DNA from: Heptranchias perlo
Lineage: Eukaryota
DNA length: 64,000 nt
Reading direction: 5' to 3'
NCBI RefSeq assembly: GCF_035084215.1
Contig: NC_090347.1
Span: 23,250,001-23,314,000, forward strand
Part shown: positions 1,672-59,492 of the stretch, piece after piece
Numbering within the stretch: the first letter of the stretch is position 1
Layout of the letters: each line of letters starts with the position of its first letter
Position numbers and translations under genes: made by a program
The notes under the pieces: model-generated
The model's database searches: none
Seen by the model: only the letters and a program-made list of their open reading frames with translations
What the model was told of the DNA's origin: nothing

Positions 1672-1679
1672 CTTTCTTC

Positions 1680-4556: not shown

Positions 4557-6494
4557 CAGTTAGTGGTAAAACGCTCACAATATTTTCACGTGAGTCGAAT
4601 TGACAGTGTAAACTAATAAATTGTAAAGCATCCTATTCTTAATGATTTTGATTTAACACCTGAAGTGTACAGGCAAAGATATACTCAAAATTACAAAAAA
4701 CCTCATACGGGATTTACATAGAACTAATCAGAAAGCTTATGGTTATTCGGAAATTCTAGTTCGATGGGAAGAGTGTGACAGATGATAAGGGATTGGTTTC
4801 TGAAAGTGGTTCCAGAAATTGGGCAATGTGCTGATCACTTTTGGCCTCGCAAGTGCAGGAAATGGTCACGCAGGTGGGAAGTCAGATGGCCCACACTGTC
4901 CATCTGGTGATGGGTCTCCTGGTCAGTCCACTGAGCAGTTTGTGCAGTGCAAGCCAGTCAACACAGCTAAACAGAATTGAAGGGCAATTCCAGGGAAATT
5001 AGATGTTTTAATTGTGAGAAAATGAATCATAACGCCAACAACTGCTTGTCTTTTAGAGGGTCTGCAGCACAACTAGGAAGACCGAGTACAGTCGTAAGAT
5101 ACTAGGCATTGAAAAATGTACCAATTCCTACACTAGGCCACAGTGAATGTGATGCACTAGATTTACAGTAGCTGTAGGTTTAACTATCCCCCCTAAGAAA
5201 ATAGAACAAGAGTCACATATGCTGTGCTAAACTACAATGTAAACTGTACTGGACGGAAGGTCCCTAAATATTAACCTTTTACGGGCGGGTCGTTGAGTCT
5301 CTCTGACTTAACTATCTCTCTTTCCCTGATTGCTCATACAGATTACCCCATTTTGACAAGACAGGCCAAGAAAAAAATTTCAATTGATGATTAGGACAAA
5401 AATAATTTAAGTATGCCTCAATTCAAAATCCAACAAAACCAAGAAGCTTGTATTTGATTGAATGGCTTGGCCTCTCTTTCAGGTACCTGCTCACACAAAA
5501 ACATCTGTATTTATTAATTTTTGTATGAAAGCAAGCTGGGTCATTTTCTGTGAATGAACCTGGCTTTTAACCTCATGTGTACTGTGTAAGAAAGGAAGAA
5601 GCCAATAACACCAAAAATGCTTCATATTTGTTACAACTAGCACTGATGACTTGTGGCTTCTGTGTCAACTTCAATGGCCTAGAACTTCCTTTGTTATCAA
5701 CTTGATTTTACTTGGAAAGCTAACTTTGAATTATTTTACTTTTTCTTCACTGAAAACATGTTTGAGTAAGAATAGGAGTGCAAAAAGTATCTTTTAAAAA
5801 AAAAATACAGCAACGGGGTGAATTTACTTACAGGCTGTTTAAGGACGTCAGCATTGACTCAGGACTGTACAAACAAAATTTTACAAGAACCCTTGGCTCC
5901 TTTTAGAAAAGGCAGAATGCTAGCTGTGGACAGTGACATTGCCATCTTTTTATAGTACTTGTCTCCAAGCTTCTGGTTCTTTTTTGTAATATTACATAAT
6001 GTATGCATTTTCCTTCACTGTTCCAAATGTAGATAGTTGGCCACTGATTGTTGCTGCCCACTTCTGAAATAGAACCATTACAGCTTACAGAGTTAAAAAC
6101 TTATCTAATATTTATTTAATTAATTTTTGAAATGTTTTCTCCATTCATTGTTGGTTTGTGCTATGTTTGACATGCACTTTCTACCAAAATAACTTGAAAA
6201 ACCACAAGTTTTTCACATAATTGGTGCCACTGCTGATGATGGCAAAATAATTAAGATATTGCACATAACCGCAACATTAGGAATAGTCATATATATCGTA
6301 AAAAGTTTAAGCAGCTTTCTAAACATAGGTGTAGATCTTTTTTGTTGAATCGACAGTTATATTTATCTAACTATGAAGACGACCATCAGGGCTAGATTTT
6401 CCACTCATTCATTGTCAATAGATGGAAAATCTAGAAATGAAGGATAACTATTAGCTGCCTTTAAAGTGAAAATGTTCCCATGTTAGAGAATAAA

Positions 6495-19799: not shown

Positions 19800-22190
19800 T
19801 GTTCTCTGCAAAATATGTCCTAGAACCAACAAAGGGGCAGTCCATATTAGATTTAATAATGAGTAATGAGCCAGATTTAGTTAACAGCCTAACGGTGCGT
19901 GAACATTTACCTAATAGCGATCATAATACGATCGAGTTCAACGTTAGTTTGAAAGGGAGACAACTGTATCAGCTTCTAAGATTCTAAATTTAGGTAAGGC
20001 CAACTTCAACGGGATGAGACAGAGACTGTCCACGGTAAACTGGGGAAATCTGTTAATGGGTAAAATGACAGACGATCAGTGGGAGGTGTTCAAAAAAGAA
20101 TTTAATGTGATACAGAATTAGTTTATACCCCTAAGGGGCAAGAGCTTTACTTGCCAAGAAAAACAGCTATGGATGACAAAAGACGTAAGGGACAACATAA
20201 AACTAAAAGAAAAAGCATACAAAAATGCAAAAAATAGCACAGATCCTGGCGACTGGAAGAGATACAAAGAACAGCAAAGGGAGACAAAACAGATAATAAG
20301 AGCTACAAAAAGGGAGTATGAAAAGAAACTTGCAAGGGATATCAAAATCAACACAAAAATTTTTTACAATTATATTAGGAAAAAGAGGGTGGTCAAGAGC
20401 AATGTGGGCCCTTTAAAAACTAATAATGGTGATATTGTAAATGAAAATAAGGAAATGGCAGACATGTTAAATAATTACTTTGTGTCAATATTTATAGTAG
20501 AAGAGGACAGTATGCTGGACAACCTAAGGAAACTAATTTTGAATCAGGGACAGGGACTTACCATAATTAACGTAAGCAAATTTACAGTAATGAAGAAAAT
20601 AATGGCACTAAAGAGCAACAAGTCCCCAGGACCAGATGGTTTCCATCCCAGGGTTTTAAAGAAAGTAGGTAAGAACATTGCAGAAGCCCTAACTATAATC
20701 TTCCAAAGTTCTCTCGATTCAGGAACCGTTCCTTTAGATTGGAAAATTGCACATCACTACGCTATTTAAGAAAGGTGAGAGAGGGAAACCAGGGTATTAT
20801 AGACCAGTTAGCCTAACTTCTGTTGTCGGGAAATTACTAGAGTCTATAATTAAGGATCGAGTGACTGAACACCTTGAAAATTTTCAGCTGATCAGAGAGA
20901 GCATGGATTTGTGAAGGGTAGGGCATGCCTGACGAATCTGATTGAATTTTTTGAAAGTAGTGGGCAGGGGAATGTCTATGGATGTTGTTTATATGGACTT
21001 CCAGAAGGCATTGGATAAAGTCCCTCATAAGAGTCTGTGAGCTAAAGTTGAAGCTCATGGAATTGAGGGCAAATTATTGACCTGGTTAGGAAATTGGCTG
21101 AGCAGCAGGAGACAAAAACTAGGGATAAATGGCAGGTACTCAAATTAGCAGGATGTGACTAGTGGTGTCCCACAGGGATCTATATTGGGGCCTCAACTAT
21201 TCACCGTATTTATCAATGACATAGATGACGGGATAGAAAACCACATATACAAGTTTGCCGATGACGCAAAGATAGGCAGCACTGTAAGTAGTGTAGATGA
21301 AAGCATAAAATTACAGAGAGGTATTAATAGATTAAGTGAATGGGCAAAACTGTGGCAAATGGATTTCTGTGTAGGCAAGTGTGAAGTCATTCACTTTGGA
21401 CCTATAAAGGATAGATCAGAGTACTTTCTAAATGGTTAAAAGCTCGAAACAGCAGAGGTCCAATGAGACTTAGGGGTCCATGTATATAGGTCATTAAAAT
21501 GTCATGGACAGGTTCGGAAAATAATCAAATAGGCTAATGGAATGCTGGTCTTTATATCTAGAGGACTAGAATACAAGGAGGTAGACGTTATGCTGCAGCT
21601 ATACAAAGCCCTGGTTAGACCACACCTGGAGTACTGTGTTCAGTTCTGGGCACTGCTCCTTAGGAAGGATGTATTGGCCTTGGAGGGAGTGCAGCTTAGA
21701 TTTACTGGAATGATACCTGGACTCCAAGGGTTAAATTACGAGGAGAGATTACACAAACTAGGGTTGTATTCCCTGGAATTTAGAAGATTATGGGATGATC
21801 TGATCGAAGTTTTCAAGATATTAAGGGGAACTGATAGAGTAGATAGAGAGAAACTATTTCTGCTGGTTGGGGAGTCCAGGACTAGGGGACATAGCCTAAA
21901 AATTAGAGCCAGGACTTTCAGGAGTGAAGTTAGGAAACACTTCTACACGCAAAGGGTGGTAGACGTTTGGAACTCTCTTCCACAAACGGCAGTTGATGAA
22001 AGCTCAATTGTTCATTTTAAATCTGAGATTGATAGATTTTTGTTAACCAAAAGTCTTAAGGGATATGGGGCTAAAGTGGGTATATGGGGATAAAGTGGGT
22101 ATATGGAATTAGGTCACACATCAGCCACGATCTCATTGAATGGCAGCACAGGCCCGAGGGATGAAATGGCCTACTCTTGTTCCTATGTTC
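19800..22190 (+). mobile_element. CR1 LINE ORF2 (end of endonuclease through RT and 3'UTR), disrupted; in JMJD6 intron 5
   Basis: ORF fragments with LDLIMSN..SDHN (APE end), [45 protein letters not shown]; frameshifts and stops. Confidence 0.92.
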
Positions 22191-27405: not shown

Positions 27406-28824
27406 TATAAAAATAAGAGAAGAATGTATCACTTTAAAATGGCAACTGAATTATGTCTGTGCACCCTGGTTCAATTATCTCCTGCCTTTAATCTTGTTTG
27501 ATCCAAGGACTACTCTTGGTCTTGACTTCTCTTGTGCAACACCATAGCAGATCAACTAGTTTTTAAAAAAATCTAAGGAACCATAGGAGCTTAGGTCAGG
27601 AAATTCCTAGCACACTTCAACCTGTGAAATGTTCAGATTGTTTCAGGGCTCTACTTGATATTGCAAAAAATTATGAAAGTGCAAATCTACAAAACCTTTT
27701 CCTAATCAGAGCGCTAGCATCAAGAAAGCAGACTAAAGAAAAAAAAATCTTGTGCAAGTCAGATGCTGACATTTAGTTACTTGTATGGGCTTTTGTTTTT
27801 AAAAAAAGAGATGCTGAAAAGGGCACATCCTTCATCAGCAAATGCTAATCAAAGTGTAAAAATACAATAGATTTCAAAAGTGTCAACAGAATTCTCCAGC
27901 ATGACATCACCCATCCTAATGAGCTCAGAAAAGTTGGCCAATCATTTCACCATCCAATTTACTGACTGGCTATTGGGCAGCATTTAAGAGTAGTGAATAA
28001 TCAGTGTTAAACTATTTTAAAGTATTCACTAACTTTTTATTGTTTTATACATAATATTTTATAATAAAGTGTATTCACTGATATGCAGGACATCACCAAC
28101 CTGAAATGGTTAATTGTCATTTAAAGAGCCATCACCTTTCCTTGTGGTACCTTTCTTTTGCCTGGTGCAGAATCCACATGTTAAACCCCCATGGTTACAC
28201 CTCCATGTAGTCAAATCATGGCCTTCCCATAACTTGTTGAAAAATGCAAGCTTTCTCAGCTCAACCTATTTCCAAATCAAGAATCCAAATCTTCCAACCT
28301 CAAGAACCAGTAAAGCCTAAAACTCAGTGCAAGCCAACATCCTTAAAGTTATATCTCCACAGTATGAAAACAAATACTTATTAATATATCTCTGCCCTGT
28401 GCAACTTGTTCACATCCACACTAAAAGCCTAAACATAAAAAGGAAGGAATGAGAAGCATCCAGGTAGACCCTGATAACCTGATCGCACATTCACTGCAGT
28501 GGAGCAAGAAGATCAACTTAAAACTATTTTTCAAATATTGAAAAATATTTGAAAAATAGTTTCAAATATTTTTCAATATTTCACCCTCCCAGAAGGATGA
28601 AGCTGGAGGTGCTGTGGCCAGAACAGTACATTGCTATGAACATTCTGACGCTGCCTCCACTTCCAGCCATTTTGCACAGAAGTCCAGGGGGTAACAAAGG
28701 CTGTTAATAACCTCAGTTTCAGTAGCACGTCCCGTGCCCATCAGTTCTTCCCACAGAAGAGGAGCCTCCATGGCGGGACAGTATAATTCTCATGACTGAC
28801 AGCAACAAACGTGGGATATATGCC

Positions 28825-39219: not shown

Positions 39220-42090
39220 AACAACAACCACCTGCATTTATATCGTGGCTTTACTGTAGGAAAATGCACCAAGATGCTTCAAAGAAGACAAAATTGACAC
39301 CGGGCCAAAGAAGGAGATATTAGGAGCAGTGACTAAAAGCTTGGACAAAGAGAGGCCATGGAATGATTTGAGAGGTTAAGAATTTTAATTTGGAGGAGTT
39401 GGCGGACTGGTAACTAATGTAGGTCAGTGAGCACAGGGGTGATGGGTGAACGGGATTTGGTGCCGGTTAGGATATGGGCAGCAGAGTTTTGGGATAAGCT
39501 CAAGTTTATGAAGGGTGGAAGATGGAAGGCCAGTCAGGAGAGCATTAGAATAATCAAATCTGGACGTTTCAGCAGCAGATGGGCTGAAGCAGGGGCGGAG
39601 ACAGGCGGTGATATGGAGTTGGAAGTAGGCCATCTTTGTGGTGGAGAGTATACGAGTTTGGAAGCTCAGCTCAGGGTCAAATAGGATGCCAAGGTTGCGA
39701 ACAGTCTGGTTCAGCCTGAGACGGAGTTTATGGTGTGAAATTGCGGCTCATCCAGGACTGGATGTTAGACAAGCAGCATAACAAATCATAGACAGTGGAG
39801 GGGTCGAAAGTGATGGTGGTGAGGTAGAGCTGGGTGTCATCAGCGTACATGTGGAATTGGATGTCAAGTTTTCGCATGACGTCCCCGTGGAGAAATAGGA
39901 GAGGGCCAAGGATAGATCCTTGCGGGATTCCAGAGGTGATGGTATGCCGGCAGGAAGAGAAGCCATTGCAAGAGATTCTTTGGCAACAACAGGATAGGTA
40001 AGAGTAGAATCAGGCGAGGGCAGTCCCTCAGCTGGTCAATGGAGGAGAGGTGTTGGAAAATGATGGCATGGTCAAGTGTCAAAGGCTGCAGCGTGAAGGA
40101 ATAGTGCATCATGGTCACAGTCACAGGGAATCAAACATTGGAGTTGCGGGAAGGCCACAACACTCTCAAAGGTTTTGGAGAGGAAAGTGGGGGGTAGCTT
40201 GCAAGGACAGGGGGGTCAAGGGTGGTTTCTTTGATGGGACTGATGACTGCAGTTTTGAATGGGAAGGAACAGTGCCGGAGGGAATGGAACCGTTCACAAT
40301 GTTAGCAAGCACGGGGGCCAGGAAGGGAAGTTGGATGATCAGCAGTTAGTGGAAATAGGGTCAAGAGAAGAGGAGGAGGTGGTCTCACTGACTAGTTATG
40401 TTCGCAGAGCGCTTGAGGGGAGATGGGATAGAAAATGGAGAAAGATATGGGTTCAGGGCGTAATTACACCCTCCTGGTAGTTGTGGCGCTATAGTGCCTC
40501 TAATAGGATGGGTAGCGTGTAATTACGATGTGACAAGTTTACATAGGCAAGTTTCCATTATAAATGTGGACACATGATTTTATAATGGAAAAGTCAACGG
40601 GAAGTGCACGCAAATGTAAGAGGTTTATGGAGACCTGACAGTGATTGACAGCGGAGAAAACAAGCAGTGGGTTATCTTTGCATTCCAGGATAATCCGGGA
40701 GTGGTGAGCAGCTTTGGCAGAGAGCCGGGCCTAACAGTGCTTGATGTGGTCTAGCCAGATTTGGCAATAAACGGCTAAAGCAGTTGTGCGCCACATACGT
40801 TCAAGTCTGTACACCTTGGAGCAAAGATGGGGGCTGTACCCGGGGGAATGACCCGGGTGGAATAGAGTAAGGGTTTTATTGGGGAAAAAGGCATCAAAGG
40901 CGGAGGTGAGGGAGAGATTGTGCAGATCACTAACTCCAGAAGTATTGCGGTGACCAAGGAGCTGGGAGTTTGAAACTGCTGTTGCAAGTGACTTAGGGGA
41001 GAGATTTTTCCAGGGATGGATGCAGAAGTGGGGTTGGAAGGGGGATGTTAGTGGTGCAGGATACAAGAAAATACAAGGAAATGATCAGAGATGGCCATAT
41101 CTGTGATTGAAACGATGGGAATAGAGTAGCCATGTGAGAAGAGTAGTTTGATGGGTTGGCCGTGAATATGGGTAGAAGAGTTTATGTGGAGGGGGTGATT
41201 AAGGGAGGACAGGATGGCAGTGAGCTCAGAGGAGGGTGGGTACAGTGAGTTGCATTGGAGGTTGAAATCACCGAGGATGAGTCGCCGTTCAGTGCAAAGG
41301 CTCAGGGAGGAAAGGAGTGAGGGTATCTCGGAGTGAATCTCAGCATGGAGCTTGGTTGGGCGATAGAGAACGAGGATTTTAAAGGACTGGCGAGAGGGGC
41401 GAAACAAGGTGAGGTGCTCAAAGGAGGAGCAGGTACCAGAGGAGTAGCACTGCAGACCAAGGTGAGATTTGGTGACAAGAGCCACACTACCACCACAGCA
41501 GTTTGGGCAGGGAAGGTATAGGCAGGTGGGGAGGCTTTCGTAAGGGACAAGGTGTCGTCACCCGTGAGCCAAGTTTCCATCGAGGCCACGATGTCAATGC
41601 AATCATTCACAATAAGGGCATGGATGGCAAGGGCCTTGTTAACAAGTGAATGGAGAGGGGTGGTGATTAGCAGAGTTAAAGGGTCAGCAGTGGGAGGGAT
41701 AAGCACAACAGCAATGTGGCTGGCAACACTAGCCACCAGCAGGCCTGCTGGGTGAGAGACAAAGGTGGGACAGTTGGGGCTGCTGCTCATAAGGCAGAGG
41801 CCAATGCCTTGATGGGCCTTTTGGAGAATGCCTAGGGGGAAGCTATAGGCTTATCCAAGCCTAGGACAGGAGAGTCAGACGGTAAAGGAGTAGTGAAGGG
41901 TTGGGTAGGGATTTGGTGGGTGGTGGGAGGTGGGAGGTGGGAGGTGGGAAGACAGGAGAAATGGAAGGAGGTATGACTGGGTAACAGGAAGGGGATGAGA
42001 CAAGAGAGAAGGGCCCAAAAGGGGTAAAGGGAGAAAGAAAAGGCAATAGAAGTAATGGGTTCTTTTAAGAGTGGAATTTGTACTGAACAG
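39220..42090 (-). mobile_element. Long degraded L2-clade LINE including endonuclease region
   Basis: Tail seen as aacaacaaccacctgcatttatatcgtg at 39220; minus-strand fragments DIVASMETWL, LYRP, LILGDFN, AISDHFLV (APE) and SRFDYSNALL.GLP. Confidence 0.85.
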
Positions 42091-43475: not shown

Positions 43476-43604
43476 CTTGACAGTGCTAAAGGATAGAGAG
43501 AAAGTTTCATGGTAGTTGTGTTTTGTCCAGTCGTAAGAGTCCCTTAACTCAGGGCGAGCACTGCGCTTAGCTTCTTTTATTCGTTTTTTAGTTTTGTGAT
43601 TCAT
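43476..43604 (-). CDS. JMJD6: JMJD6 coding exon 1 (bifunctional arginine demethylase / lysyl-hydroxylase, JmjC family)
   Basis: ATG at 43604: [43 protein letters not shown]|GTAAGG; 129 nt. Six exons sum to 1212 nt = 403 aa with consistent phases. Confidence 0.98.
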
Positions 43605-43960
43605 TTCCTAATCTTAAAGCCGCGGGTCTTGCGCTTTTAAAAAAAAAAGCCCTTAAAACCGCTACCGGGTCACACCGCCAGCTTTTACTCTCGAGAGGGC
43701 AGAGACTCGAGGACGAAGATCCTTTTATGAGACTAAATTTCCAGAATTTTCACGCCGCCCGCCCATCTCGCACCTTCCTGTCAATCAAACCAGACGACGG
43801 AAGTCCGGCCCACCGGCCGGGCGCTGATTGGCTGTCGGCAACGTTAGGCGCGTCTAATTGGCGGGTTGGGGTGTCACTCTGGAGAGGTCACGAGCCCCGC
43901 CCCCTCCCCCTCCATGGTTCCCGGAGGCTGCGAGGGGTCAGAGTTGAAGCGCTTGACGTC
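43605..43960. promoter_or_regulatory. Bidirectional CpG-island promoter shared by JMJD6 and METTL23
   Basis: 356 bp between divergent ATGs. CpG-rich, with ETS-like ACGGAAGT (43797-43804), two ATTGG/CCAAT boxes (43827, 43857), GC box CCCCGCCCC (~43895) and CRE palindrome TGACGTCA (43954-43961). Confidence 0.85.
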
Positions 43961-44059
43961 ATGAGCGCCCAGCGGCCTTTAAGTGCCAAGCGGTTCGTGT
44001 TTGTGGAGGAATCGTCGAGTGATGGTGGTGCGGGGTGTTTAGAGGTTTCTATACCCGAG
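43961..44059 (+). CDS. METTL23: METTL23 coding exon 1
   Basis: MSAQRPLSAKRFVFVEESSSDGGAGCLEVSIPE|GTGTCT; 99 nt, in frame with exon 2 (…LEVSIPE-VLDPEYGMYIWP). The donor is weak and the start codon is inferred. Confidence 0.75.
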
Positions 44060-44344
44060 GTGTCTGCTATTTTTTTAAAAAAAAAACACGCTGTTGTTTG
44101 TTTAGATGGGGAACGGTGAAGACAAATCGTGTTTCTCTCAATTGATATGAGCGCTTTCTCCCGAATAGGAGGCCGCGGCCCAACCTTTGAAAAATAAACC
44201 AATGGAAACCTCACGCTTGAAGCGAACGCCATTTCAAGCAGCCTCTAAATTTTCCGCTCACTCGCTGTGTTGCCCCTTCCAGGGGAACTGGGCGTCGCAC
44301 TGCACATGCTTTAGATCTGGGAAGTATTAGACGTGACATTTGTT

Positions 44345-44830
44345 GGTAGGGAGAGTGGTGAGCAAAGATTGGAGCGGTGCAAACATGTACTTTCACATTT
44401 GGGACCTTGATTGCAAATCCAGCCCAGTTATGGGGATGAATTTCTCTCCCCTCTGCGGGCTGTGAAGACAGTTACTAGGCTGAAACTTTAGTGCAGTCCC
44501 GATGATGTGTTGCATTGTTGAAAGTCTTTTAGATTAGAGATTGTAAAATGATCTAACGGCAATCTTGAAGACGAGCAAGGAATTGTGTGGTCTCCTAGTT
44601 TATGTTCCTCCTTCAGGCAACTCTTTCTCCTCCCCCCCCCCCCCCCCCAAACGGATTAATTGGTCATTTATCTCATATGCCGTTTTGGGACTTTGCAATG
44701 TGCAAATTGGCGGCTACATTTGCCTACAAAAACAACTGTGATTCCACTTCAAAAAAAATAATTTTGTTGGTTGTGAAATGCTTTGGAATGTCCTGTGAAA
44801 AATGCTATATAAAAGTAGATTTTTTTTTCT
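44345..44830 (+). mobile_element. LF-SINE-like head (~44345-44500) fused to a Deu-domain SINE remnant (~44500-44830)
   Basis: ctttcacatttgggaccttgattgcaaatccagcccag; then tgtgcaaattggcggctacatttgcctaca...gctttggaatgtcctgtgaaaaatgctatataaaag. Confidence 0.5.
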
Positions 44831-44943
44831 CTCAACATTCACTGCCCTCCGAAAGAGATTTATTGTGTTAAATGTTCTGATATATTTAGATGTTTGTAAA
44901 CAATTTTACAACACCAAATTATAGTCCAGCAATTTTATTTTAA

Positions 44944-44984
44944 ATTCACAAGCTTTCGGAGACTTCCTCCTTCCTCAGGTAAAT
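44944..44984 (-). ncRNA. Minimal type-I hammerhead ribozyme motif (mirror copy in the palindrome)
   Basis: Exact reverse complement of 45007-45047. Confidence 0.7.
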
Positions 44985-45006
44985 GTTTCAGGAGCGCTCC
45001 TGAAAC

Positions 45007-45047
45007 ATTTACCTGAGGAAGGAGGAAGTCTCCGAAAGCTTGTGAAT
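45007..45047 (+). ncRNA. Minimal type-I hammerhead ribozyme motif
   Basis: Stem I ATTTAC/GTGAAT; core CTGAGGA (CUGANGA); stem II GGAG-GAAGT-CTCC; GAAA; palindromic AAGCTT in place of stem III, with UH = UU. Confidence 0.75.
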
Positions 45048-45149
45048 TTAAAATAAAATTGCTGGACTATAACTTGGTGTTGTAAAATTGTTTACAATTG
45101 TCAACCCCAGTCCATCACCAGCATCTCCACATCATATTTAGATGTGACA

Positions 45150-45572
45150 AGGTATCAGCTCAGTGGTAGCACTCTTGCCTCTGAGTCAGAAGGTGTGGGT
45201 TCAAGCCCCATTGAGCACGTAATCTAGGCTGCATTTTAGTATTGAGGGAGTGCTGCATTGTTGGAGGTGAGAATTTTGGTATGGAATGGTCAGTCGAGGC
45301 CCCATTTGCCCGTTCACATGAATGTAGAAGATCCCATGGCACCATTTGAAGAAGAGCTGGGGAGTTCTTCTGGTGTTCTGGCCAATATTCCTCAACTTAG
45401 TAAAACAGATTATCGCTTCATTTATCTCATTGCTGTTTATGGGACCTTACTGCATGAAAGTTGGCTACTACGTTATCCCATGTTTTCACTTCAAAAGTAC
45501 TACTTTGGCTATGGAGTGCTTTGGCATGTCCTGAGGTAGTGAAAGGTGCTGTATAAATGAAAGTTGTTTCTT
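45150..45572 (+). mobile_element. Near full-length tRNA-derived Deu-domain SINE (SacSINE1/AmnSINE1-like)
   Basis: A-box CAGCTCAGTGG and B-box GGTTCAAGCCC; Deu-like core gatcccatggcaccatttgaagaagagctggggagttc...aaaacagattatc; tail gaaaggtgctgtataaatgaaagtt. Confidence 0.8.
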
Positions 45573-45754
45573 ATAAATTAAAGCTTCTTTCATACCCTTT
45601 TAATATATATTCATATAATCAATATGCAGAGTGGCTGGAAAATTGCAATTGGTGTTCTTAATGCAGAATCTGTGAAAATTATCCTGCTCTGCTTCTGGAC
45701 TCGTTCTTCACTGCTGCTTCTGGCTCCGACCATCATTTTCTTTTTATTAATTCT

Positions 45755-45995
45755 TAGGATGTGGCAGGGCCAGCATTTATTGCCCATACCTAATTGCCCT
45801 TGAGATGATGGTGGTGAGCCACCTTCTTGAACCGCTGGAGTCTGTGTGGTGGAAGTGCTCCCACAATGCTATTAGGTTGGGAGTTCCAGGATTTTGACCC
45901 AGTGCGATGAAGGAACCACAATATATGTCCAAATCAGGATGGTGTGTGACTTGAAGGGGAACTTAAGAGGTGAATTTCTTCCCATGCACTTGCTG
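45755..45995 (-). mobile_element. Family A LINE 3' fragment
   Basis: ggccagcatttattgcccatacctaattgcccttgag... matches 3057-3290. Confidence 0.85.
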
Positions 45996-47149
45996 CCCTG
46001 AGACAGCTGTTGCTCCAGCTCTGCTGTGAGTGGGAATTCTTAATCTCAGTAGTTTTGCAGCAGATCCCCAGAACAACGTTAGCTAGTTGCTGTGATGGAC
46101 AAATTGGGGGGAAACTGGCTGTGAACTTGGGGGAAGGTGGTTGAACATTGCCATGAGCTGTAGGGGAAGGGGGAGAGAAAAGGAGTGCCAATGTTAACTG
46201 GGGAGGAGGAAGGAGAAGAATGCTAGTGTGAATTGGTAAATTGATAAACAATTTTAAACTAATTTGACAATCAAATTTAGCAATGCATTACTAGTACATA
46301 TTCCCAATAGTCGACAATTTCTCCAGTAGAAATGAGGAAAAATCCATTTTTTGCCATAATCTGCAATTTCCAATGGCCCTGACAAAAGAATAAGCCTGAT
46401 GATTTCCAGCCCTATGAAGCATTGTTCCTTTTGAAGTATCACCGAAGGCTTACACTGGGGCAGCTTCAGTACTCTGCCTGTACATAAGAATTTAGTGCAC
46501 CCGTATCTATCCATTAAATGCTGTCTTTTTCAAAAATAAGATTCATAAACAATGTTTTCTGTGGTGAAGTTTTTCATTGCTTTCTTCTCTTTAAGTAGAT
46601 TTTATTTAGTGGAATTTAAGCATCTGTGGTCCTGGTCCATTATCTTCAAAAAAAAATTAAAGCTCCCCTAATGACACTATTATGGTGATACATGTGACTT
46701 CCTCTCAGGGCAGCAAGTGCATGGGAAGATATCACAGAGGTGTAATTCATGGACTTTCTGCATTTCAACTCATCCTGATCTGCCTCATTAATGAAGTGTA
46801 TCATCAAAACTGGTGCAACTGGGGATTCTCCAGTTTTGGTGTTTGCAAAAGGTGGCAATCCTACCATTGAGAGTTGACAAGATTGTGCACAAACATGCTG
46901 TGGCATAGTAGTTGGTTGTGGGTTTGTGCCCATGATTTATTGTGCCGATTCCTTTGATCTCAGTCTTTCCAAAGTAAGGGAAGTTGTAGTTGATGGAACT
47001 GGACATGTGCACTCTCGTGCACAAACTGGTTTATGGTTTGCTAGAGGTAATGACAAAAAAGAAGCCAGTATGTGCTGGGGAGGAGAGAGGAAATTCCTGA
47101 AGGATGATTCTGTGGTGACTTTTTGATTTGAGATCCATTTCCTCAATTT

Positions 47150-47460
47150 TCTCCCCTCGTGTTACTCATCCTGACAGTATGGGTGCTGGTAGCCATCTTG
47201 ATACCTTATCCAAGGTGAGTTTAGACAGTGAGTGTCAGCAGGCTATTTGAGTGTGTCGACTATCACAGCAGAGCCCAATCCTATCTTCGCTTGACATCAG
47301 CACATGTACATTCCAGTAGTGGTTACTGGATAGCAATCAAGAACTAGATCATGGCTGATTTTTCCTGTCCTTAGCCTGGGGATATTTATGCCATTGTGCC
47401 CCACTGCTGGCTGGTTTTGTATCATACTATAGGATGCACTTACTCACGGATCCATCGGAG
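47150..47460 (-). mobile_element. Family B SINE
   Basis: Reverse complement of the family B body (cagagcccaatcctatc...cacatgtacattccagtagtggttactggatagcaatcaagaac). Confidence 0.5.
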
Positions 47461-48492
47461 GAGCCCTAGTTACATCGTCTTTCTGTTTTAGAATCATTGT
47501 ACAACACTTTTGTTCTATGAGTGACTGCTGTTTATTTTGTTTATTGATTTATGTGGAATCAACATCAGAATTGGCAATTGAGAAAGAACATTGTTGGCAA
47601 GTAGGGTAAATAAAATAATTTTCTTTTAACAGATAGTAATTTCCTGAAAGATGTAATGTTCGAACATTACATTGCTGAATAAAACATATTTCTGCGACAA
47701 ACCAAATCACAAGGCAATTCCCGCAGCATTTCCTATCAGTAAAACATATGGAAGAAACCGAATGCCTTGCAGTGTAATCTGATTTTTATTTCCATAAGTG
47801 AATTCCAGTCAGTTTCACATATAAAAATAAAAATGTACTGTATTATTTAACAAGCATTCAGCATTCACTTTATTAATACTTGAACAGTGTTTAGTTCTTA
47901 ATTTAGAAGTTGCAAGTGTATTCAAAAAGGTAATAAAATACTAACTAAAAATCATCTACACTTTGCTTATTTGTGATTTTATTTTTGATTGTAAAGCTGT
48001 GTTTGTACAATTCTATGAACATTACAAAAACGTTAAACGATCTGATTGTATAATAAGCCAGAACTGGGGAGTAAATCATTTGGAATAATTAAATGAGTTG
48101 CTGCTGCTATTCACTGATGGAGGTACTGTCAAACTTGTTGCTACTTGTGAAAGATGGCTCAGTAGAAGAAAAACAATTAAGTGAAGGATACAGCAATATG
48201 GCTTTTTGGAGCAATCTGCTTGAAAAAGTAATCTGCTTGATTGGGCCTAATATTATGTCCTTTCTCCTGCTCTAAAACAGTGGTATGGGATCTTTTACAT
48301 CCACCTGAGGGCAGATGGGGACTTGGTTTAACGTTTCATCCGAACAACAGCACCCCCTCAGTACTGTACCAAAGTGTCAATATTCTCAAGTTGCTGGAGT
48401 TAGGCTTGAATTTTTGACTTTCTGACAGAGGTGAAAGTGCTTACACAGAACTAAGGGCTGACAGAGCCAATGAATTTGTTTTTAAGTGTAAT

Positions 48493-49101
48493 CACTGATG
48501 TTTTTGTAAGCAAACGCAACAGACAATTTGCACATAAGATCCTATAAACGTCAATGAGAACAATGACCCTTCTATCCTTGCAAACTACTGCTCCATCTCC
48601 AAACTCCCTTTCCTCTCCAAAGGCCTTGAATGTGTTGTCGCCTCCCAAATCTGTGCCCATCTTTCCCGCAACTCCACGTTTGAACCTCCAATCTGGTTTC
48701 AGCCCCTGTTACACCACTAAAACTGCCCTAATCAAAAGTCACAAATGACATTTTCTGTGACTGTGACCATCATGGATTATGCCCCATCATTCTTCTACAC
48801 TGATGTTTTTGTAAGCAAACGCAACAGACAATTTGCACATAAGATCCTATAAACGTCAATGAGAACAATGACCCTTCTATCCTTGCAAACTACTGCTCCA
48901 TCTCCAAACTCCCTTTCCTCTCCAAAGGCCTTGAATGTGTTGTCGCCTCCCAAATCTGTGCCCATCTTTCCCGCAACTCCACGTTTGAACCTCCAATCTG
49001 GTTTCAGCCCCTGTTACACCACTAAAACTGCCCTAATCAAAAGTCACAAATGACATTTTCTGTGACTGTGACCATCATGGATTATGCCCCATCATTCTTC
49101 T
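48493..49101. repeat. Perfect tandem duplication, period 305 bp
   Basis: 48493-48796 equals 48798-49101 (the ORF track shows identical 64-aa ORFs at 48554 and 48859). Confidence 0.95.
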
Positions 49102-49644
49102 CGGTCTGTCTGCAGCCTTTGATGTGGTCGACCACACCATCCTCCTTCAACTCTTCTCCTCCATTGTCTAGCAGTGGGACTGCTTGCGCTTGTTCCTCTC
49201 TTACCTATCCAGTTGTAAACAGAGACTCTCCTGTGATGGCTTCTCTTCCTGCCCCACAGTTACCTCTGGAGTCCCCTGGCTCTGGCTCCATTACCTATCC
49301 ACCAATTCCATCCCTATCTCTAACCAGCTCCAGCCGTACAATCCTCTGGGAACTCTGCGTTCCTCCAAATCTGGCCTCTTGTGCATCCCCCACTTCTTTG
49401 CTCCACCATCCGCAATCGTGCCTTCAACCGTCTAGATGCTAAGCTCTGGAATTCACTCCCCAAACTTCTTTGCCTCTCCACCTTTTAAGAGGCTGTTTAA
49501 AACCTACCTCTTTGACCAAGCATTTGGTCACCTGTCCTAATGTCTTCCTCTTTGGCTTGTTAATTTTTGTCTGATTACGCTCCTGTGAAGCGTCTTTGGA
49601 TGTTTCACTGCATTAAAGATGCTATATAAATGCAAGTTGTTGTT
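48565..49644 (+). mobile_element. L2-clade LINE fragment abutting METTL23 exon 2, preceded by a minus-strand Deu-SINE remnant (~48270-48565)
   Basis: LQSGFSPCYTTKTALIK RT-like segment; tail gctatataaatgcaagttgttgtt ends at 49644. Confidence 0.8.
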
Positions 49645-49654
49645 ACTTCTTCAG

Positions 49655-53363: not shown

Positions 53364-53699
53364 GTAAGTTTTTAATTCATTGTGATTGCACCTGAACAGC
53401 ATTTTATTTTTTATTATACTATTTGCATGTGTAATGACAATTGTACATTCAACTGATAGGACTTAGGCTGGAATAGTCACTTCGTTATAATGGTAAAGTA
53501 GCTTCAGATTTAAAAAATTCAGGTTTGCCAGTCTTGACTGGCATTTGCATTCTCATTCTTCCCTTAGAGTGCCAGTTTCATCACTCATAGTTTGGTCATC
53601 TGTTCGATGAAAAGGGAGGAATTGGCTTTCTGTCCTACTACAGCTGAAATGCAACAAGCTCCATAGCTCTCACTCATCAACTCTATGTTGGAGATCTTA

Positions 53700-55740
53700 T
53701 TGCTGGTAGAAGTGGGGAACCTTGGATGACTCGGGAGATTGAGGCCCTAGTCAAAAAGAAGAAGGAGGCATATGACATGCGTAGGCAGCTGGGATCAAGT
53801 GGATCCCTTGAAGAGTATAGAGGTTGCCGGAGTAGAGTTAAGAGAGAAATCAGGAGGGCAAAAAGGGGACATGAGATTGCTTTGGCAGATAAGGCAAAGG
53901 AGAATCCAAAGAGCTTCTACAAGTACATAAAGGGCAAAAGAGTAACTAGGGAGAGAGTAGGGCCTCTTAAGGATCAACAAGGTCATCTATGTGTGGAACC
54001 ACAAGAGATGGGTGAGATCCTGAATGAATATTTCACATCGGTATTTACGGTTGAGAAAGGCATGGATGTTAGGGAACTTGGGGAAATAAATAGCGATGTC
54101 TTGAGGAGTGTACATATTACAGAGAGGGAGGTGCTGGAAGTCTTAACGCGCATCAAGGTAGATAAATCTCCGGGACCTGATGAAATGTATCCCAGGACGT
54201 TATGGGAGGTTAGGGAGGAAATTGCGGGTCCCCTAGCAGAGATATTTGAATCATCAACAGCTACAGGTGAGGTGCCTGAAGATTGGAGGGCAGCAAATGT
54301 TGTGCCTTTGTTAAAGAAGGGCGGCAGGGAAAAGCCTGGGAACAACAGACCGGTGAGCCTGACATCTGTAGTGGGTAAGTTGTTAGAGGGTATTCTGAGG
54401 GACAGGATCTACAGGCATTTGGAGAGGCAGGGACTGATTAGGAACAGTCAGCATGGTTTTGTGAGAGGAAAATCATGTCTCACGAATTTGATTGAGTTTT
54501 TTGAAGGGGTAACCAAGAAGATAGATGAGGGCTGTGCAGTAGACGTGGTGTACATGGACTTCAGCAAAGCCTTTGACAAGGTACCGCATGGTAGGTTGTT
54601 ACATAAGGTTAAATCTCATGGGATCCAAGGTGAGGTAGCCAATTGGATACAAAATTGGCTTGACGACAGAAGACAGAGGGTGGTTGTAGAGGGTTGTTTT
54701 TCAAACTGGAGGCCTGTGTCCAGCGGTGTGCCTCAGGGATCGGTGCTGGGTCCGCTGTTATTTGTTATTTATATTAATGATTTGGATGAGAATTTAGGAG
54801 GCATGGTTAGTAAGTTTGCAGATGACACCAAGATTGGTGGCATTGTGGACAGTGAAGAAGGTTATCTAGGATTGCAGCGGGACCTTGATAAATTGGGCCA
54901 GTGGGCCGATGAATGGCAGATGGAGTTTAATTTAGATAAATGTGAGGTGATGCATTTTGGTAGATCGAATCGGGCCAGGACCTACTCCGTTAATGGTAGG
55001 GCGTTGGGGAGAGTTATAGAACAAAGAGATCTCGGAGTACAGGTTCATAGCTCCTTGAAAGTGGAGTCACAGGTGGATAGGGTGGTGAAGAAGGCATTCG
55101 GCATGCTTGGTTTCATTGGTCAGAACATTGAATACAGGAGTTGGGATGTCTTGTTGAAGTTGTACAGGACATTAGTAAGGCCACACTTGGAATACTGTGT
55201 ACAGTTCTGGTCACCCTATTATAGAAAGGATATTATTAAACTAGAACGAGTGCAGAAAAGATTTACTAGGATGCTACCAGGACTTGATGGTTTGACTTAT
55301 AGGGAGAGGTTAGATAGACTGGGATTTTTTTCCCTGGAGAGTAGGAGGTTAAGGGGTGATCTTATAGAAGTCTATAAAATAACGAGGGGCATAGATAAGG
55401 TAGATCGTCAAAATCTTTTCCCAAAGGTAGGGGAGTCTATAACGAGGGGACATAGATTTAAGGTGAGAGGAGAGAGATACAAAAGGGTCCAGAGGGGCAA
55501 TTTTTTCACTCAAAGGGTGGTGAGTGTCTGGAACGAGCTGCCTGAGGCAGTAGTAGAGGCGGGTACAATTTTGTCTTTTAAAAAGCATTTGGACAGTTAC
55601 ATGTGTAAGATGGGTATAGAAGGATATGGGCCAAGTGCAGGCAATTGGGACTAGCTTAGTGGTATAAACTGGGCGACGTGGACATGTTGGGCCGAAGTTG
55701 CCTGTTTCCATGTTGTAACTTCTATGATTCTATGATCTAT
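53700..55740 (+). mobile_element. Young 5'-truncated CR1 LINE in METTL23 intron 4
   Basis: Intact RT ORF, 3'UTR and (TTCTATGA)n tail at ~55720-55740. Confidence 0.95.
53726..55654 (+). CDS. CR1 ORF2 fragment (RT, 642 aa without stops; lacks endonuclease)
   Basis: KSPGPD, RPVSLTSVVGK, QHGF, MDFSKAFD, GVPQGSVLGP, KFADD, YRTLVRPHLEYCVQFWSP. Confidence 0.88.
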   Translation: MTREIEALVKKKKEAYDMRRQLGSSGSLEEYRGCRSRVKREIRRAKRGHEIALADKAKENPKSFYKYIKGKRVTRERVGPLKDQQGHLCVEPQEMGEILNEYFTSVFTVEKGMDVRELGEINSDVLRSVHITEREVLEVLTRIKVDKSPGPDEMYPRTLWEVREEIAGPLAEIFESSTATGEVPEDWRAANVVPLLKKGGREKPGNNRPVSLTSVVGKLLEGILRDRIYRHLERQGLIRNSQHGFVRGKSCLTNLIEFFEGVTKKIDEGCAVDVVYMDFSKAFDKVPHGRLLHKVKSHGIQGEVANWIQNWLDDRRQRVVVEGCFSNWRPVSSGVPQGSVLGPLLFVIYINDLDENLGGMVSKFADDTKIGGIVDSEEGYLGLQRDLDKLGQWADEWQMEFNLDKCEVMHFGRSNRARTYSVNGRALGRVIEQRDLGVQVHSSLKVESQVDRVVKKAFGMLGFIGQNIEYRSWDVLLKLYRTLVRPHLEYCVQFWSPYYRKDIIKLERVQKRFTRMLPGLDGLTYRERLDRLGFFSLESRRLRGDLIEVYKITRGIDKVDRQNLFPKVGESITRGHRFKVRGERYKRVQRGNFFTQRVVSVWNELPEAVVEAGTILSFKKHLDSYMCKMGIEGYGPSAGNWD

Positions 55741-56989
55741 CTCCCAAGATGTAAGAACTTGCATTTTGCAGTGCCTTCCACGATACCACAAAATGTTTCA
55801 CAACTAATTAAGCACTTTTGAACAGTCATACTTACCTCACTGTTGTAAGGTAGGCTCACATGGTAGCCAATTTGCACAAAAGAGTCTGTTTTTAGTACAG
55901 ATCTGTGACTGTAATTGTGATATAATTCCCTTTTGTCCCATTCCTTTTTAATTCTTAAAATATTTCTCCACCTGATCTTTAGTAGGCCAAATAGCTGTAG
56001 ATCTATTTTTGTGAAATGCAGATTAATCATCTTGTACTGCTGGTATGGTAGCCTAAATGTTATAAGAGACCAAGAACTTGAGCTCCATTACCACTGGCTG
56101 AAATTTTCCATTGATTACATTTACACTGCCACTTTTGTAATACCATAAAGGAGTTTTGGGTGTGCACTCACACACTGGTTTGAGTTCTCAGAAACTTAAG
56201 TGTAAATCCAGATGCATCAACTCAAGTGCAAATGAGTGCAACAGCATCTTTTCGAAGCACTTTTTAGTTGATCCTATAGTTGCAGTAAAGAAGGAGTCAG
56301 TAGCAGTAAGAAAAAAATCACAGTTGAGATCAAGGCTCATTGCGAAAGCTGTACTAAGAGTGAGTAATGTACTGAAAAAAACATTGTTTCCTTCTTCAAC
56401 TCGGTGCAATTTCTGAGAAAAATGAAATATTTGGTGATTTAATAACCTGATGCCAATGTGAAAATCACCTGAACTACTGTTTGTGATCAAGGATTAGTGA
56501 TAAATGATAGGTGGCTTGATGGTGATTATCTCTGATAAAATATAAATTGTGGTTATATAATTTTGTTTCAAATGATCATTTCAAACATGAACTTTACAAA
56601 AAAAGGAAACACTCTGAGTTTAATGGAAAATAAACATTTTACATCCAGACTTGGGATCGAATGCTCTCAGATGAGACACAGGAAGACTACATATAATTTG
56701 GCCTTGATGCAAATCCAGAGGTGAAGAACAGTATTTTAAAGCAGCTAGTTGATCTCCTATGGTGATGTACACTGGCAGTCAAGACAAAGTACAGTGTTCA
56801 GCTCAAGCTTGGGGAGGGTGGGGGAAAGTGGACCGGGGGATAGGGAGTCGGGTGAAAGGAAGAGGACGAGGCAGGTAGGGAAAAGGACACGGGTCTTATT
56901 CAAATAAATACCGCTGGGAACATCCCGAAGTTTGGAGAATTCCATCTACAAAGTAGGGTTATCACAAATATAAGGTGAGAATGGGGTTC

Positions 56990-57910
56990 ATAACATCATA
57001 GAAGGTATAGCACAGGAGGCCATTTGGCCCACCGTGCCTGGACCAGCTCTTTGAAAGAGCTATCCAATTAATTCTATTCCCATAAGTCCTGTAAATATTT
57101 TCCCTTCAAATATTTATCCAATTTATTGAATCTGCTCCCACCACACTTTCAGGCAGTGCATTCCAGATCATTACAACTCACTGTTTAAAAAAAAGTTTCC
57201 TTCTGTCACCTCTGGCTCTTTTGCCAATCATCTTAAATCTGTGTCCTCTGATTATTGACCCATCTGCCACTGGAAACAGTTTCTCCTTATTTACTCTGTC
57301 CAAAACAGTTCATGATTTTGAACACCTCTATCAAATCTCCTCTCAACCTTCTCTGCTCTAAGGAGAACAACCCCAGTCTCCCCACATAACTGAAGTCCCT
57401 CATCCCTGGCACCATTCTAGTAAATCTCTTCTGCACCCTCTCTAAGGCCTTGATGTTCTTCCTAAAGTGTGATGCCCAGAATTGAACACAATACTCTAGC
57501 TGGGACTTAACCAGTGTTTTATAAAGGTTTAGCATAACTTCTTTGTTTTTGTTCTCTATGCCTCTTTTAATAAAAGCCCAGGATCCCATATGCATTTTTA
57601 ACAGCCTACTCAACTTGTCCTGCCATCTTCAAAGATTTATGTACGTGCACCACAGGTCTCTCTGTTTCTGCACCCACTTTAAAATTGTACTATTTGGTTT
57701 ATATTGCCTCCCCTCATTCTTCCTGCCAAAATGTATCACTTCACCCTTCGGTGTTAAATTTCATCTGCCAAGTGTCTGCCCATTTCACCAGTCTGTCTAT
57801 GCCCTCCTGAAGTCTGTTACTATCCTCCACATTGTTTACTACATTTCTGAGTTTTGTGTCATCTGCAAGATTTGAAATTATACCCAAGACCAGGTCATTA
57901 ATATATATAT
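56990..57910 (-). mobile_element. CR1 LINE 3' part, degraded
   Basis: Minus ORFs YINDL..LADDTKL and LYKTLVKSQLEYCVQFW...RRLRGDLIEVFKIM. Confidence 0.9.
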
Positions 57911-58220
57911 CAAAAAGAATAGGGTTGATGTATTTTTTTGTGGGTGTGATGGACAGCAAGGCTGGAGTAGGAGACAATAAAGCTTGAAGTATTTTGTTTT
58001 AAACGTACTCTCACCGAGATGCCTGCTAGGCTCCAGCCAATGCATTGGTTCAGCCCTGCCTAATAGCAAATGCAGTGGAGATTCAAATAAACAGAGTATC
58101 AGTCATGTAACATTAGGAGTCTCCCACTTATTAACATAACATGACCCTCACATCACCACTTACAAAGGACTATGCCAATGGAATGTTGTGGCTGGTCACT
58201 TTTTAATATAATAGATGTGG

Positions 58221-58849
58221 GGGTTGAGTTTCCACTAGTTATATCAGCACAATCCAGGTGGAATCGACAACCAGCGTGAACAATTGGGGAATTTTAAACG
58301 TGAGTTATGCCTAAAACCACTTACATTCATGATTTCCGTGGTCTTTTATGCTGGTTCAAGATTCATTTCGCCCGAATCAGGTCCCATCTTCAGGTCGAAA
58401 TTGCGAGATTCCGCTAGTTTGGGTAGGCTCTTTAAATTGCGCTCATTTTTGTAGGCACGTTTTAAAAGTTTATCAAAAAATATTTAATTTACTAAGAAAC
58501 TGGCTATTAAATGGTTCAGTATAGTTTTTTTTAGTCATTTTCAGTTATTTTAAAATCGGGTTACTTACAGATGGAGGACTGGACACCTAGTAAAAATGCT
58601 TATTTTCATTGATAAAGCAATTTTCAGCTGTACTAATGAAATTGCACCATGTTTCACTCTTAAATATATCAAGGAATACTTTTTAATGGAAAGAAAAAAC
58701 AATTACGTTCTGTTACACTGCCCGATTACACTGGTTCATGGAAGATTTTACATTTGTGATTATGCAAATGAATTTTAGCACAAACTTGGAGCCGAGCCTA
58801 ACTTAACCAGTGCAATTTCCCGTTTGCGCCCAAAGTGGAAACTCTACCC
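58221..58849. mobile_element. Non-autonomous DNA transposon/MITE with ~16-bp TIRs
   Basis: GGGTTGAGTTTCCACT at 58221 and AGTGGAAACTCTACCC ending at 58849; no transposase ORF; TSD not clear. Confidence 0.65.
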
Positions 58850-58860
58850 TTTACAACTTA

Positions 58861-59084
58861 AATTGTAGAGGCAGTTGAAAAGACTATCTGTAATCACCAG
58901 GCATTGTTCTGTGATTTATAAATGCGATAGGTTCGAGGATTTCATTTCCACATTCACCTGAGGAAGGAGGAAGCCTCCGAAAGCTTGTGGATTTTAAAAT
59001 AAAATTGTTGGACTATAACTTGGTGTTGTAAAATTGTTTACAATTGTCAACCCCAGTCCATCACCGGCATCTCCACATCATCTC
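58861..59084 (+). mobile_element. Penelope-like element terminal fragment
   Basis: 58950-59081 nearly identical to 45005-45135; flanked by TACAACTTA at 58852-58860 and 59085-59093 (candidate TSD). Confidence 0.75.
58952..58992 (+). ncRNA. Minimal type-I hammerhead ribozyme motif
   Basis: Stem I ATTCAC/GTGGAT; CTGAGGA; stem II GGAGG-AAG-CCTCC; GAAA; palindromic AAGCTT. Confidence 0.75.
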
Positions 59085-59492
59085 TACAACTTAGTCATTT
59101 GAGTTTCTTGAACTGGGCTTTTATAATTTTAAACTGTCATTCACTTTTCTCTTACATTTTTTGCTCCATCTACTGCCTTTTACTTGCCAGTTTTGATCTT
59201 GGGAAGTTGTCTCAATTTTTCTCTGTCATTATTCTTCGTTAATCTTCCAAGGACTTAACAGGATCTACTTCCACTATTCCTGTCCTAACACACACCAACA
59301 GTACATTAAAGCATGATCTTTAATCTGTGGGAGAACGCTACCCAACATGAGATTACACTTACTATCCCTATTAACTTCACTATATTGATTCAGTCAAATT
59401 TGAGAAGGAACGACAAACCCAGGTTTGGATTATACATGAAATCTGTCTTGCATTATTGTAAGAATTATTTCTGAATAATTTATCTCTTCCAG

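What the first reader, a model, noticed from the sequence alone, without database searches (positions are those of the whole stretch)
44882..45145. Spacer-less 204-bp palindrome carrying a hammerhead ribozyme motif on each strand in METTL23 intron 1
Seen: 44894-45097 is self-complementary with one mismatch and no loop spacer. It is flanked by a 12-bp duplication (ATATTTAGATGT). Each arm has ATTTAC-CTGAGGA-A-GGAG(GAAGT)CTCC-GAAA-GCTT-GTGAAT. Known: Penelope-like elements carry minimal type-I hammerheads with a palindromic stem III that can act as dimers, and they often insert with an inverted terminal copy. Inference: this is a young Penelope-type insertion about 0.9 kb from the bidirectional promoter. 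In METTL23 pre-mRNA it would fold into ~100-bp dsRNA that masks the ribozyme (possible ADAR/Dicer substrate), and in DNA it could extrude a cruciform.
Basis: partly seen in the sequence, partly recalled or inferred. Interest (0 to 1): 0.75.

Follow-up and report, generated by a model that had tools for sequence, protein, structure and literature searches.

The report
Mirror-image Penelope retrotransposon stump
The palindrome is real, but it is likely the ordinary mirror-image stump that a very abundant Penelope-type jumping gene leaves when it inserts, and its self-cutting RNA motif is predicted to be locked shut by its own mirror copy.

Summary
Confirmed: 44894-45097 is a spacer-less palindrome (102-bp arms, one mismatch) between identical 12-bp repeats, in intron 1 of a METTL23-like gene opposite JMJD6. 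Each arm carries a minimal type I hammerhead. Laid contigs put the sequence roughly 10^5-fold above unique DNA and show inverted joints at other truncation points. An inverted truncated copy, a one-sided 30-40-nt tail, a short duplication and a minimal hammerhead are the published insertion signature of Penelope-like elements (PLEs). Likely mechanism: both target strands are primed at the two reverse-transcription start sites that bracket the tail, and the two cDNAs join at a palindromic tip. Folding gives hammerhead stems probability 0 inside the duplex. No RT/GIY-YIG ORF could be linked (no genome held), so membership rests on anatomy. Rfam found no hammerhead. The scan noted similar palindromes twice before on other DNA. 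Ordinary; low interest.

The parts
44882..44893 (+). left copy of the target-site duplication (AT-rich)
44894..44986 (-). inverted, tail-less copy of the element's 3' end (element-derived part of the left arm)
44944..44984 (-). minimal type I hammerhead of the left arm (C3 44978, N17 44950)
44987..45004 (.). 18-bp self-complementary centre, not present upstream of the hammerhead in copy 2; origin unresolved
45005..45097 (+). sense copy of the element's 3' end (element-derived part of the right arm)
45007..45047 (+). minimal type I hammerhead: 6-bp helix I, core CUGAGGA, extra A before helix II, 4-5-bp helix II, GAAA, 4-nt palindrome in place of helix III, predicted cut after U45041
45098..45135 (+). 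AC-rich 36-38-nt tail on one side only; predicted to form the 3' strand of a stem-loop (45060-45123)
45134..45145 (+). right copy of the target-site duplication (its first 2 nt may belong to the element end)
58861..59081 (+). second copy of the same family (221 bp): 89 bp more upstream sequence, hammerhead 58952-58992, same tail, possible 7-nt inverted stub at 58861-58867; in the gene's last intron
58849..58860 (+). left target duplication of copy 2; partner at 59082-59093, 11 of 12 identical, with an exact 9-mer at only these 2 places
43961..44059 (+). coding exon 1 of the host METTL23-like gene; intron 1 is 44060-49654
   Evidence: RNA? contig X5 record 18 covers 43958-44061, and only 104 of its 1261 letters lie on the stretch
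43476..43604 (-). coding exon 1 of JMJD6, head-to-head with the host gene
   Evidence: exon 2 matches PDB JMJD6

Best explanation
This is a real 204-bp palindrome plus a one-sided 36-38-bp tail between short direct repeats, built from two head-to-head copies of the hammerhead-bearing end of a very abundant repeat; it is likely a heavily truncated insertion of a Penelope-like retrotransposon, and its ribozyme is predicted to be locked shut by its own mirror copy. Most likely route (inferred; about 55% given the PLE identity): (1) the element's GIY-YIG endonuclease nicks both strands of an AT-rich target 10-12 bp apart; (2) one 3' end primes reverse transcription at the outer start site, giving the arm with the tail, and the other primes at the inner start site, giving the tail-less arm; (3) both cDNAs copy the same RNA variant and stop about 100 nt in, inside a self-complementary stretch; (4) the two identical cDNA ends anneal through that stretch and fill in, leaving a zero-spacer palindrome and a target duplication. 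The product encodes no protein and lacks the upstream pLTR part seen in copy 2. In host pre-mRNA the antisense arm is transcribed first and would zip up the hammerhead into a roughly 100-bp duplex that leaves with the intron. Shown: the anatomy, the second copy, the high abundance, other inverted joints. Predicted: the folding. Inferred: the enzyme, the priming order and the inactivity.
For: Anatomy. Published signature: an inverted 5'-truncated copy next to the 5' end with a 30-40-bp tail at one end (PMC8557442). An inverted pLTR, a 31-bp tail on one of the inverted pLTRs, 8-10-bp duplications and palindromes at the inverted junction, including an 18-bp one (PMC3846280). A PLE protein cuts and extends both strands, prefers AT-rich ATT sites, starts at two sites in an AC-rich stem-loop that bracket the tail, and is predicted to be a dimer (PMC11167929). 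The hammerhead has the PLE min-HHR traits: an extra nucleotide between 9 and 10.1, G10.1-C11.1 and a palindromic 15-16 region; dual min-HHRs 100-700 bp apart on opposite strands are reported (PMC4209133). Abundance: summed contig depth at 45029-45119 is 3.3e6 (X1) and 7.9e6 (X2) against about 10-13 and 47 on unique flanks (the tool warns this is no copy number). Two copies lie in 64 kb. Five of the 15 joints shown (896 in all) run from left arm to right arm at other truncation points, asymmetric by 2-62 nt. Copy 2 begins with a 7-nt reverse complement ending 2 nt from the same tail-less site (chance about 0.001 from window 7-mer frequencies, post hoc). The two arms share all 5 differences from copy 2. 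Hammerhead stem pair probabilities are 0.0 and 0.0 in context against 0.97 and 0.87 in the lone arm.
Against: No RT plus GIY-YIG ORF was linked to this terminus. No genome is held. Pfam found no GIY-YIG domain among 105 window frames; the 4 RVT_1 hits lie far from both copies. Four motif scans of public contig collections gave 0 hits. Rfam does not call the hammerhead. The joints have only 20-25 letters on the short side at 85% likeness, below the tool's own caution level. The perfect symmetry and the shared variants fit single-cDNA fold-back or later gene conversion equally well. The 9 nt on each side of the centre have no identified source. Depth at 44994 was 6486, 480 and 674 in X1, X2 and X5, and 5 contigs show a 2-nt gap there, so this centre may recur elsewhere.
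Confidence: 0.85

Rival explanations
1. Same element, different route: a single cDNA (or an antisense template) folds back at a small hairpin and copies itself, or the arms were made identical later by gene conversion. This is the self-priming model of Arkhipova et al. 2013. The confidence given is conditional on the PLE identity.
For: Zero spacer and exact symmetry. The arms share 5 of 5 differences from copy 2. The centre folds as a stable hairpin (-11.2 kcal/mol). PMC3846280 reads junction palindromes as self-priming.
Against: Fold-back does not by itself explain why the left arm ends at the tail boundary, as the stub of copy 2 also does within 2 nt. The other inverted joints are asymmetric. 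In vitro, both strands are extended (PMC11167929).
Confidence: 0.3
2. The palindrome is itself a replicating non-autonomous unit with a fixed centre, mobilised in trans by PLE proteins.
For: Contig depth at the centre (44994) exceeds single-copy depth in X1, X2 and X5, and 5 contigs show the centre with 2 nt left out. The centre is absent from copy 2.
Against: Inverted joints occur at many other positions (5 of the 15 shown in table 5, 3 of the 12 shown in table 5c). Alignments at 85% likeness can run through a different centre of similar length. A roughly 100-bp perfect duplex would hide both the ribozyme and the tail stem-loop.
Confidence: 0.08
3. It is a hammerhead-bearing non-autonomous repeat (retrozyme- or SINE-like) with no autonomous partner in this genome, rather than the end of a full PLE.
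For: No ORF was linked. Retrozymes occur in the one chondrichthyan sampled in bioRxiv 10.64898/2026.07.22.740005.
Against: Retrozymes are defined there as tandem head-to-tail arrays, whereas both copies here are solitary with target duplications. The same preprint derives retrozymes from PLE pLTRs anyway.
Confidence: 0.05
4. Assembly or library fold-back artefact.
For: No contig shown spans the whole palindrome or its right junction (only a few of about 159,000 pieces are listed). The runs that hold the stretch best are one sample and may be the assembly's own source.
Against: The tail is on one side only. A clean target duplication is present. The arms differ by one base. Unique flanks and host exons continue collinearly on both sides. 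X2 record 9 runs from the unique flank 20 nt into the left arm (under the tool's 31-letter bridging rule, so weak).
Confidence: 0.03
5. The insertion has been co-opted to regulate METTL23 or JMJD6 (an editing or Dicer substrate, or a cruciform near the shared promoter).
For: It lies about 0.83 kb into intron 1. The RNA duplex is about -167 kcal/mol and the DNA hairpin -115 kcal/mol.
Against: It looks recent, and the family had no cover in the one other organism laid (X9 depth 0 at 44938-45119; 72 in 100 of the run read, so absence is not proven). About 30% of PLEs in the whale shark are intronic (10.1101/443036), so the position is unremarkable. There are no editing or small-RNA data.
Confidence: 0.03

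Closest known systems
Insertion units of endonuclease-positive Penelope-like elements (Penelope/Poseidon/Neptune): pLTR end, adjacent inverted 5'-truncated copy, one-sided tail, TSD (PMC8557442 passages; PMC3846280 passages)
   Same: Head-to-head inverted copy, 36-38-nt tail on one arm only, 10-12-bp duplication, palindrome at the junction, 5' truncation, high copy number.
   Different: Truncation is extreme: no ORF remains and the two arms are exactly equal. The autonomous partner and the clade were not identified here.
PAc (Poseidon of Anolis carolinensis), the PLE characterised in vitro (PMC11167929, parts 1-2 of 4 read)
   Same: Hammerhead followed about 90-130 nt downstream by an AC-rich stem-loop whose 3' strand is the tail; AT-rich target containing ATT.
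   Different: The PAc ORF starts at helix II of the ribozyme; here there is no ATG at that place and the frames of copy 2 are closed. No sequence comparison with PAc was made.
Minimal type I hammerheads of metazoan PLEs (PMC4209133, parts 1-2 of 4 and supplement passages)
   Same: CUGANGA core with an extra unpaired nucleotide, G10.1-C11.1, no stable helix III, palindromic 15-16 region. A coelacanth PLE motif has the same CUGAGGAA core, and a lamprey one a similar UCAC/GUGA helix I.
   Different: Helix II is short (4-5 bp) and N17 is U. Activity is untested. In this copy the motif is masked by its antisense arm.
Non-LTR retrozymes (bioRxiv 10.64898/2026.07.22.740005, parts 1 and 3 of 5 plus passages)
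   Same: Short non-coding repeat with a type I hammerhead, related to PLE pLTRs.
   Different: Retrozymes are tandem head-to-tail arrays able to form dimeric ribozymes; these copies are solitary or head-to-head, with target duplications.

Membership tests
EN+ Penelope-like element | ORF with telomerase-like RT and GIY-YIG endonuclease linked to this terminus | not testable with these tools
   No genome held; no GIY-YIG among 105 window frames; 0 related loci in 4 scans
EN+ Penelope-like element | Minimal type I hammerhead near the 3' end (pLTR) | tested here: met
   Descriptor hits 3 sites against 0 in each of 20 shuffles; traits as in PMC4209133; Rfam does not call it
EN+ Penelope-like element | Inverted 5'-truncated copy adjacent to the 5' end | tested here: met
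   other inverted joints
EN+ Penelope-like element | 30-40-bp tail on one end only | tested here: met
   45098-45133/35 present on the right arm and in copy 2, absent from the left arm
EN+ Penelope-like element | Short target-site duplication at an AT-rich site | tested here: met
   12 of 12 here and 11 of 12 for copy 2; no empty site was seen
EN+ Penelope-like element | Dispersed, variably 5'-truncated family | tested here: met
   two copies of different length in the window; depth about 10^5-fold over unique flanks (rough)
EN+ Penelope-like element | Partial-tandem pLTR-ORF-pLTR arrangement in full copies | not testable with these tools
   needs the genome
Active hammerhead ribozyme | Self-cleavage at N17 | not testable with these tools
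   Stems are predicted absent in context. The modelled active dimer is -14.3 against a dimer minimum of -22.3 kcal/mol. PLE min-HHRs are inactive as monomers and weak as dimers or need protein.
Non-LTR retrozyme | Tandem head-to-tail units, each with a type I hammerhead | tested here: not met
   Both window copies are solitary; no tandem direct copy
MITE or foldback DNA transposon | Terminal inverted repeats abutting the target duplication on both sides | tested here: not met
   The tail separates the right arm from the duplication, and a one-armed copy exists
microRNA precursor | Match to an Rfam miRNA family at its gathering score | tested here: not met
   All such hits are below the gathering score and reflect the hairpin alone

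The most novel reading that the evidence does not exclude
The palindrome with this fixed 18-bp centre is itself a PLE-mobilised mini-element that rebuilds its own mirror form at each insertion, because two cDNAs meet and anneal at the self-complementary tip. Such copies sitting in introns of expressed genes would also supply perfect roughly 100-bp double-stranded RNA directed against the ribozyme-bearing end of a family of about 10^5 copies: a built-in silencing trigger made by the element's own insertion chemistry.
Probability: 0.1. Interest if true: 0.55.

Novelty: new member of a known kind. Interest (0 to 1): 0.17.

Why it matters
As a single locus it matters little: it is the expected debris of an abundant retrotransposon. 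Its use is as a clean specimen for an open question, how PLEs make their inverted ends. PMC11167929 leaves the steps after priming unvalidated, and PMC3846280 leaves the template question open. A genome with tens of thousands of recent copies would let two-strand priming and fold-back be told apart by counting alone.

Tried and rejected
Rfam at gathering score over the window: 0 matches. At E up to 10 over 44850-45200: 20 matches, none a hammerhead, mostly generic hairpin families, all below threshold; rejected as shape-only. Own-genome search: no genome held. Two degenerate motifs of the element in 4 scans (metagenome twice, viral once, prokaryote genomes once): 0 of 4 with hits, which is expected for a vertebrate repeat. 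Pfam on 104 stop-to-stop frames of 85 aa or more plus exon 2: no GIY-YIG. Sequencing-run search: no RNA holder listed; X5 is RNA only by the tool's guess. No empty-site joint among the 15 joints shown of 896, so allele status is unknown. Organism B (X9) has no cover on the element, but its flanks at the site are not uniquely covered either, so no orthologous empty site was seen. Folding z-scores of the lone hammerhead against shuffles are unremarkable (-0.6 to -1.0), so stability is not evidence; the descriptor is. The centre's 9-mers occur nowhere else in the window. Supplement searches: no shark entry in file 2 of PMC4209133 (file 1 could not be searched and may bear on this); nothing in 3 files of PMC11167929. 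bioRxiv supplements were closed. Seven literature searches found no paper on this particular family or on PLE-derived intronic hairpins as silencing triggers; the library is partial, so this does not show absence from print.

Full report
Observation. The sequence at 44882-45145 reads: 12-bp repeat, 102-bp arm, its 102-bp reverse complement with no spacer, a 36-bp extra piece, and the 12-bp repeat again. The one mismatch is 44918/45073; copy 2 agrees with the right arm there, so the left arm changed. Shuffled windows give zero-spacer arms of 7-11 nt in 20 of 20 trials against 77 perfect nt here. A descriptor for minimal type I hammerheads finds exactly three sites in 64 kb, one per arm and one at 58958, and none in 20 shuffles. 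Rfam reports no hammerhead; my reading is that its models expect a helix III, which this motif lacks (recalled, not tested).

Host context. Exon 1 (43961-44059) joins in frame to exon 2 at 49655. A later exon matches the lysine methyltransferase family PF10294, and the head-to-head gene is JMJD6. A contig of a run guessed to be RNA covers 43958-44061 with the rest of its 1261 letters off the stretch, as a spliced message would. The name METTL23 is from recalled synteny and motifs. That the host is a shark-like fish is also recall (resemblance of nearby repeats); no call names it.

First, the tail 45098-45133/35 is on the right only. Second, a second copy lies at 58861-59081, 95.5% identical over 132 bp, in the last intron of the same gene (53364-59492). 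It has its own duplication (11 of 12), 89 bp more upstream sequence and the same tail. Its first 7 nt are the reverse complement of the element ending 2 nt from where the left arm of the palindrome ends (chance about 0.001, post hoc), so it may be the same architecture with a tiny inverted arm. Third, the central 18 bp (44987-45004) are not in copy 2 and occur nowhere else in the window. Both arms share all five differences from copy 2.

Genome-wide picture from laid contigs (4 runs, three of one sample that may be the assembly's source). Summed depth on the right arm is about 3.3 million and 7.9 million against about 10-13 and 47 on unique flanks. The tool says this is no copy number, but it fits two copies in 64 kb. 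Of 15 joints shown (896 in all), five go from left arm to right arm at other positions, which is what inverted copies with other truncation points would give; they are asymmetric by 2-62 nt. Their short sides are only 20-25 letters at 85% likeness, so this is supporting evidence, not proof. One X2 contig runs from the unique flank 20 nt into the left arm; none shown spans the palindrome. The run of another organism has zero depth on the element. Against my reading, depth at the centre is above single-copy level (6486, 480, 674) and five contigs show it with 2 nt left out; this may be other copies with this centre, another allele, or loose alignment through different centres.

Comparison with print. 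Craig et al. (PMC8557442, passages) state that PLE insertions are often 5'-truncated, carry an inverted truncated copy at the 5' end and have a 30-40-bp tail at one end. Arkhipova et al. (PMC3846280, passages) show inverted pLTRs, a 31-bp one-sided tail, 8-10-bp duplications and junction palindromes, read as self-priming. Cervera and de la Pena (PMC4209133, parts 1-2 of 4 and supplement passages) define the minimal hammerhead, report pairs on opposite strands 100-700 bp apart, and find no monomer activity and low dimer activity. Frangieh et al. (PMC11167929, parts 1-2 of 4) show a lizard PLE protein cutting and extending both strands at AT-rich sites, starting at two sites in an AC-rich stem-loop that bracket the tail, with a ribozyme that cuts only with the protein and is dispensable for insertion in vitro. 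The tail here is AC-rich and is predicted to close a stem-loop. PLEs are reported as common in whale shark introns (10.1101/443036, two passages). I also saw passages of PMC6155905 and parts 1 and 3 of 5 plus passages of the retrozyme preprint.

Mechanism. I commit to two-strand priming. A staggered cut gives the duplication; one strand primes at the outer start (arm with tail) and the other at the inner start (tail-less arm); the two cDNAs, copied from the same variant, anneal at a self-complementary tip and fill in. This explains the tail asymmetry, the boundary shared with copy 2 and the zero spacer. Single-cDNA fold-back or later gene conversion explains the symmetry as well but not the boundary; I give it about 30%. 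All enzymatic steps are inferred from related elements. In RNA, whichever strand is read, the antisense arm precedes the sense hammerhead, and the hammerhead stems have probability 0.0 in context against 0.97 and 0.87 alone. Even the free motif should be weak: the modelled active dimer is about 8 kcal/mol above the dimer minimum, and U at position 17 is a poor cleavage residue (recalled). The insertion is therefore most likely an inert dead end that is spliced out with intron 1.

Membership and novelty. Five anatomical PLE features were tested and met. The defining ORF could not be tested. So it works like, and very probably is, a PLE stump; its clade is unassigned. The scan had noted similar hammerhead palindromes in two other genomes and read them the same way; these are unchecked AI notes, which I use as a lead to PMC3846280 and not as support. 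Verdict: real, a new member of a known kind, interest 0.17.

Noticed in passing
window 58861-59081: Second copy of the family in the last intron of the same gene, in sense orientation and unmasked. The same pre-mRNA thus carries two sense hammerheads 14 kb apart and one antisense arm that could also pair with copy 2 (-137 kcal/mol).
   Followed up: yes
window 58914-58923: 10-bp perfect palindrome in the upstream part of copy 2; a predicted alternative centre for symmetric insertions, and possibly a TATA-like motif.
   Followed up: partly
window 44994: Five contigs (4 in X1, 1 in X2) show the centre with 2 nt left out, which would still be a perfect palindrome: an allele, another copy or an alignment effect.
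   Followed up: partly
window ~28520-28580: AT-rich imperfect palindrome and short tandem, with arms up to 22 bp around a 5-nt spacer.
   Followed up: no
window ~44665-44846 and ~45150-45570, 45757-46000: The palindrome sits between other high-copy repeats that are shared with organism B; they look like tRNA-derived SINEs and a LINE fragment (recalled).
   Followed up: no
window 53648-55654 (+), 3079-4632 (-), 20122-22093 (+), ~39731-40009 (-): LINE-type reverse transcriptase fragments, one with a 668-aa open frame inside the METTL23-like gene's last intron.
   Followed up: no
window 1135-1692 (-): Open frame resembling exon 1 of MXRA7 (recalled), which fits the recalled MXRA7-JMJD6-METTL23 order.
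   Followed up: no
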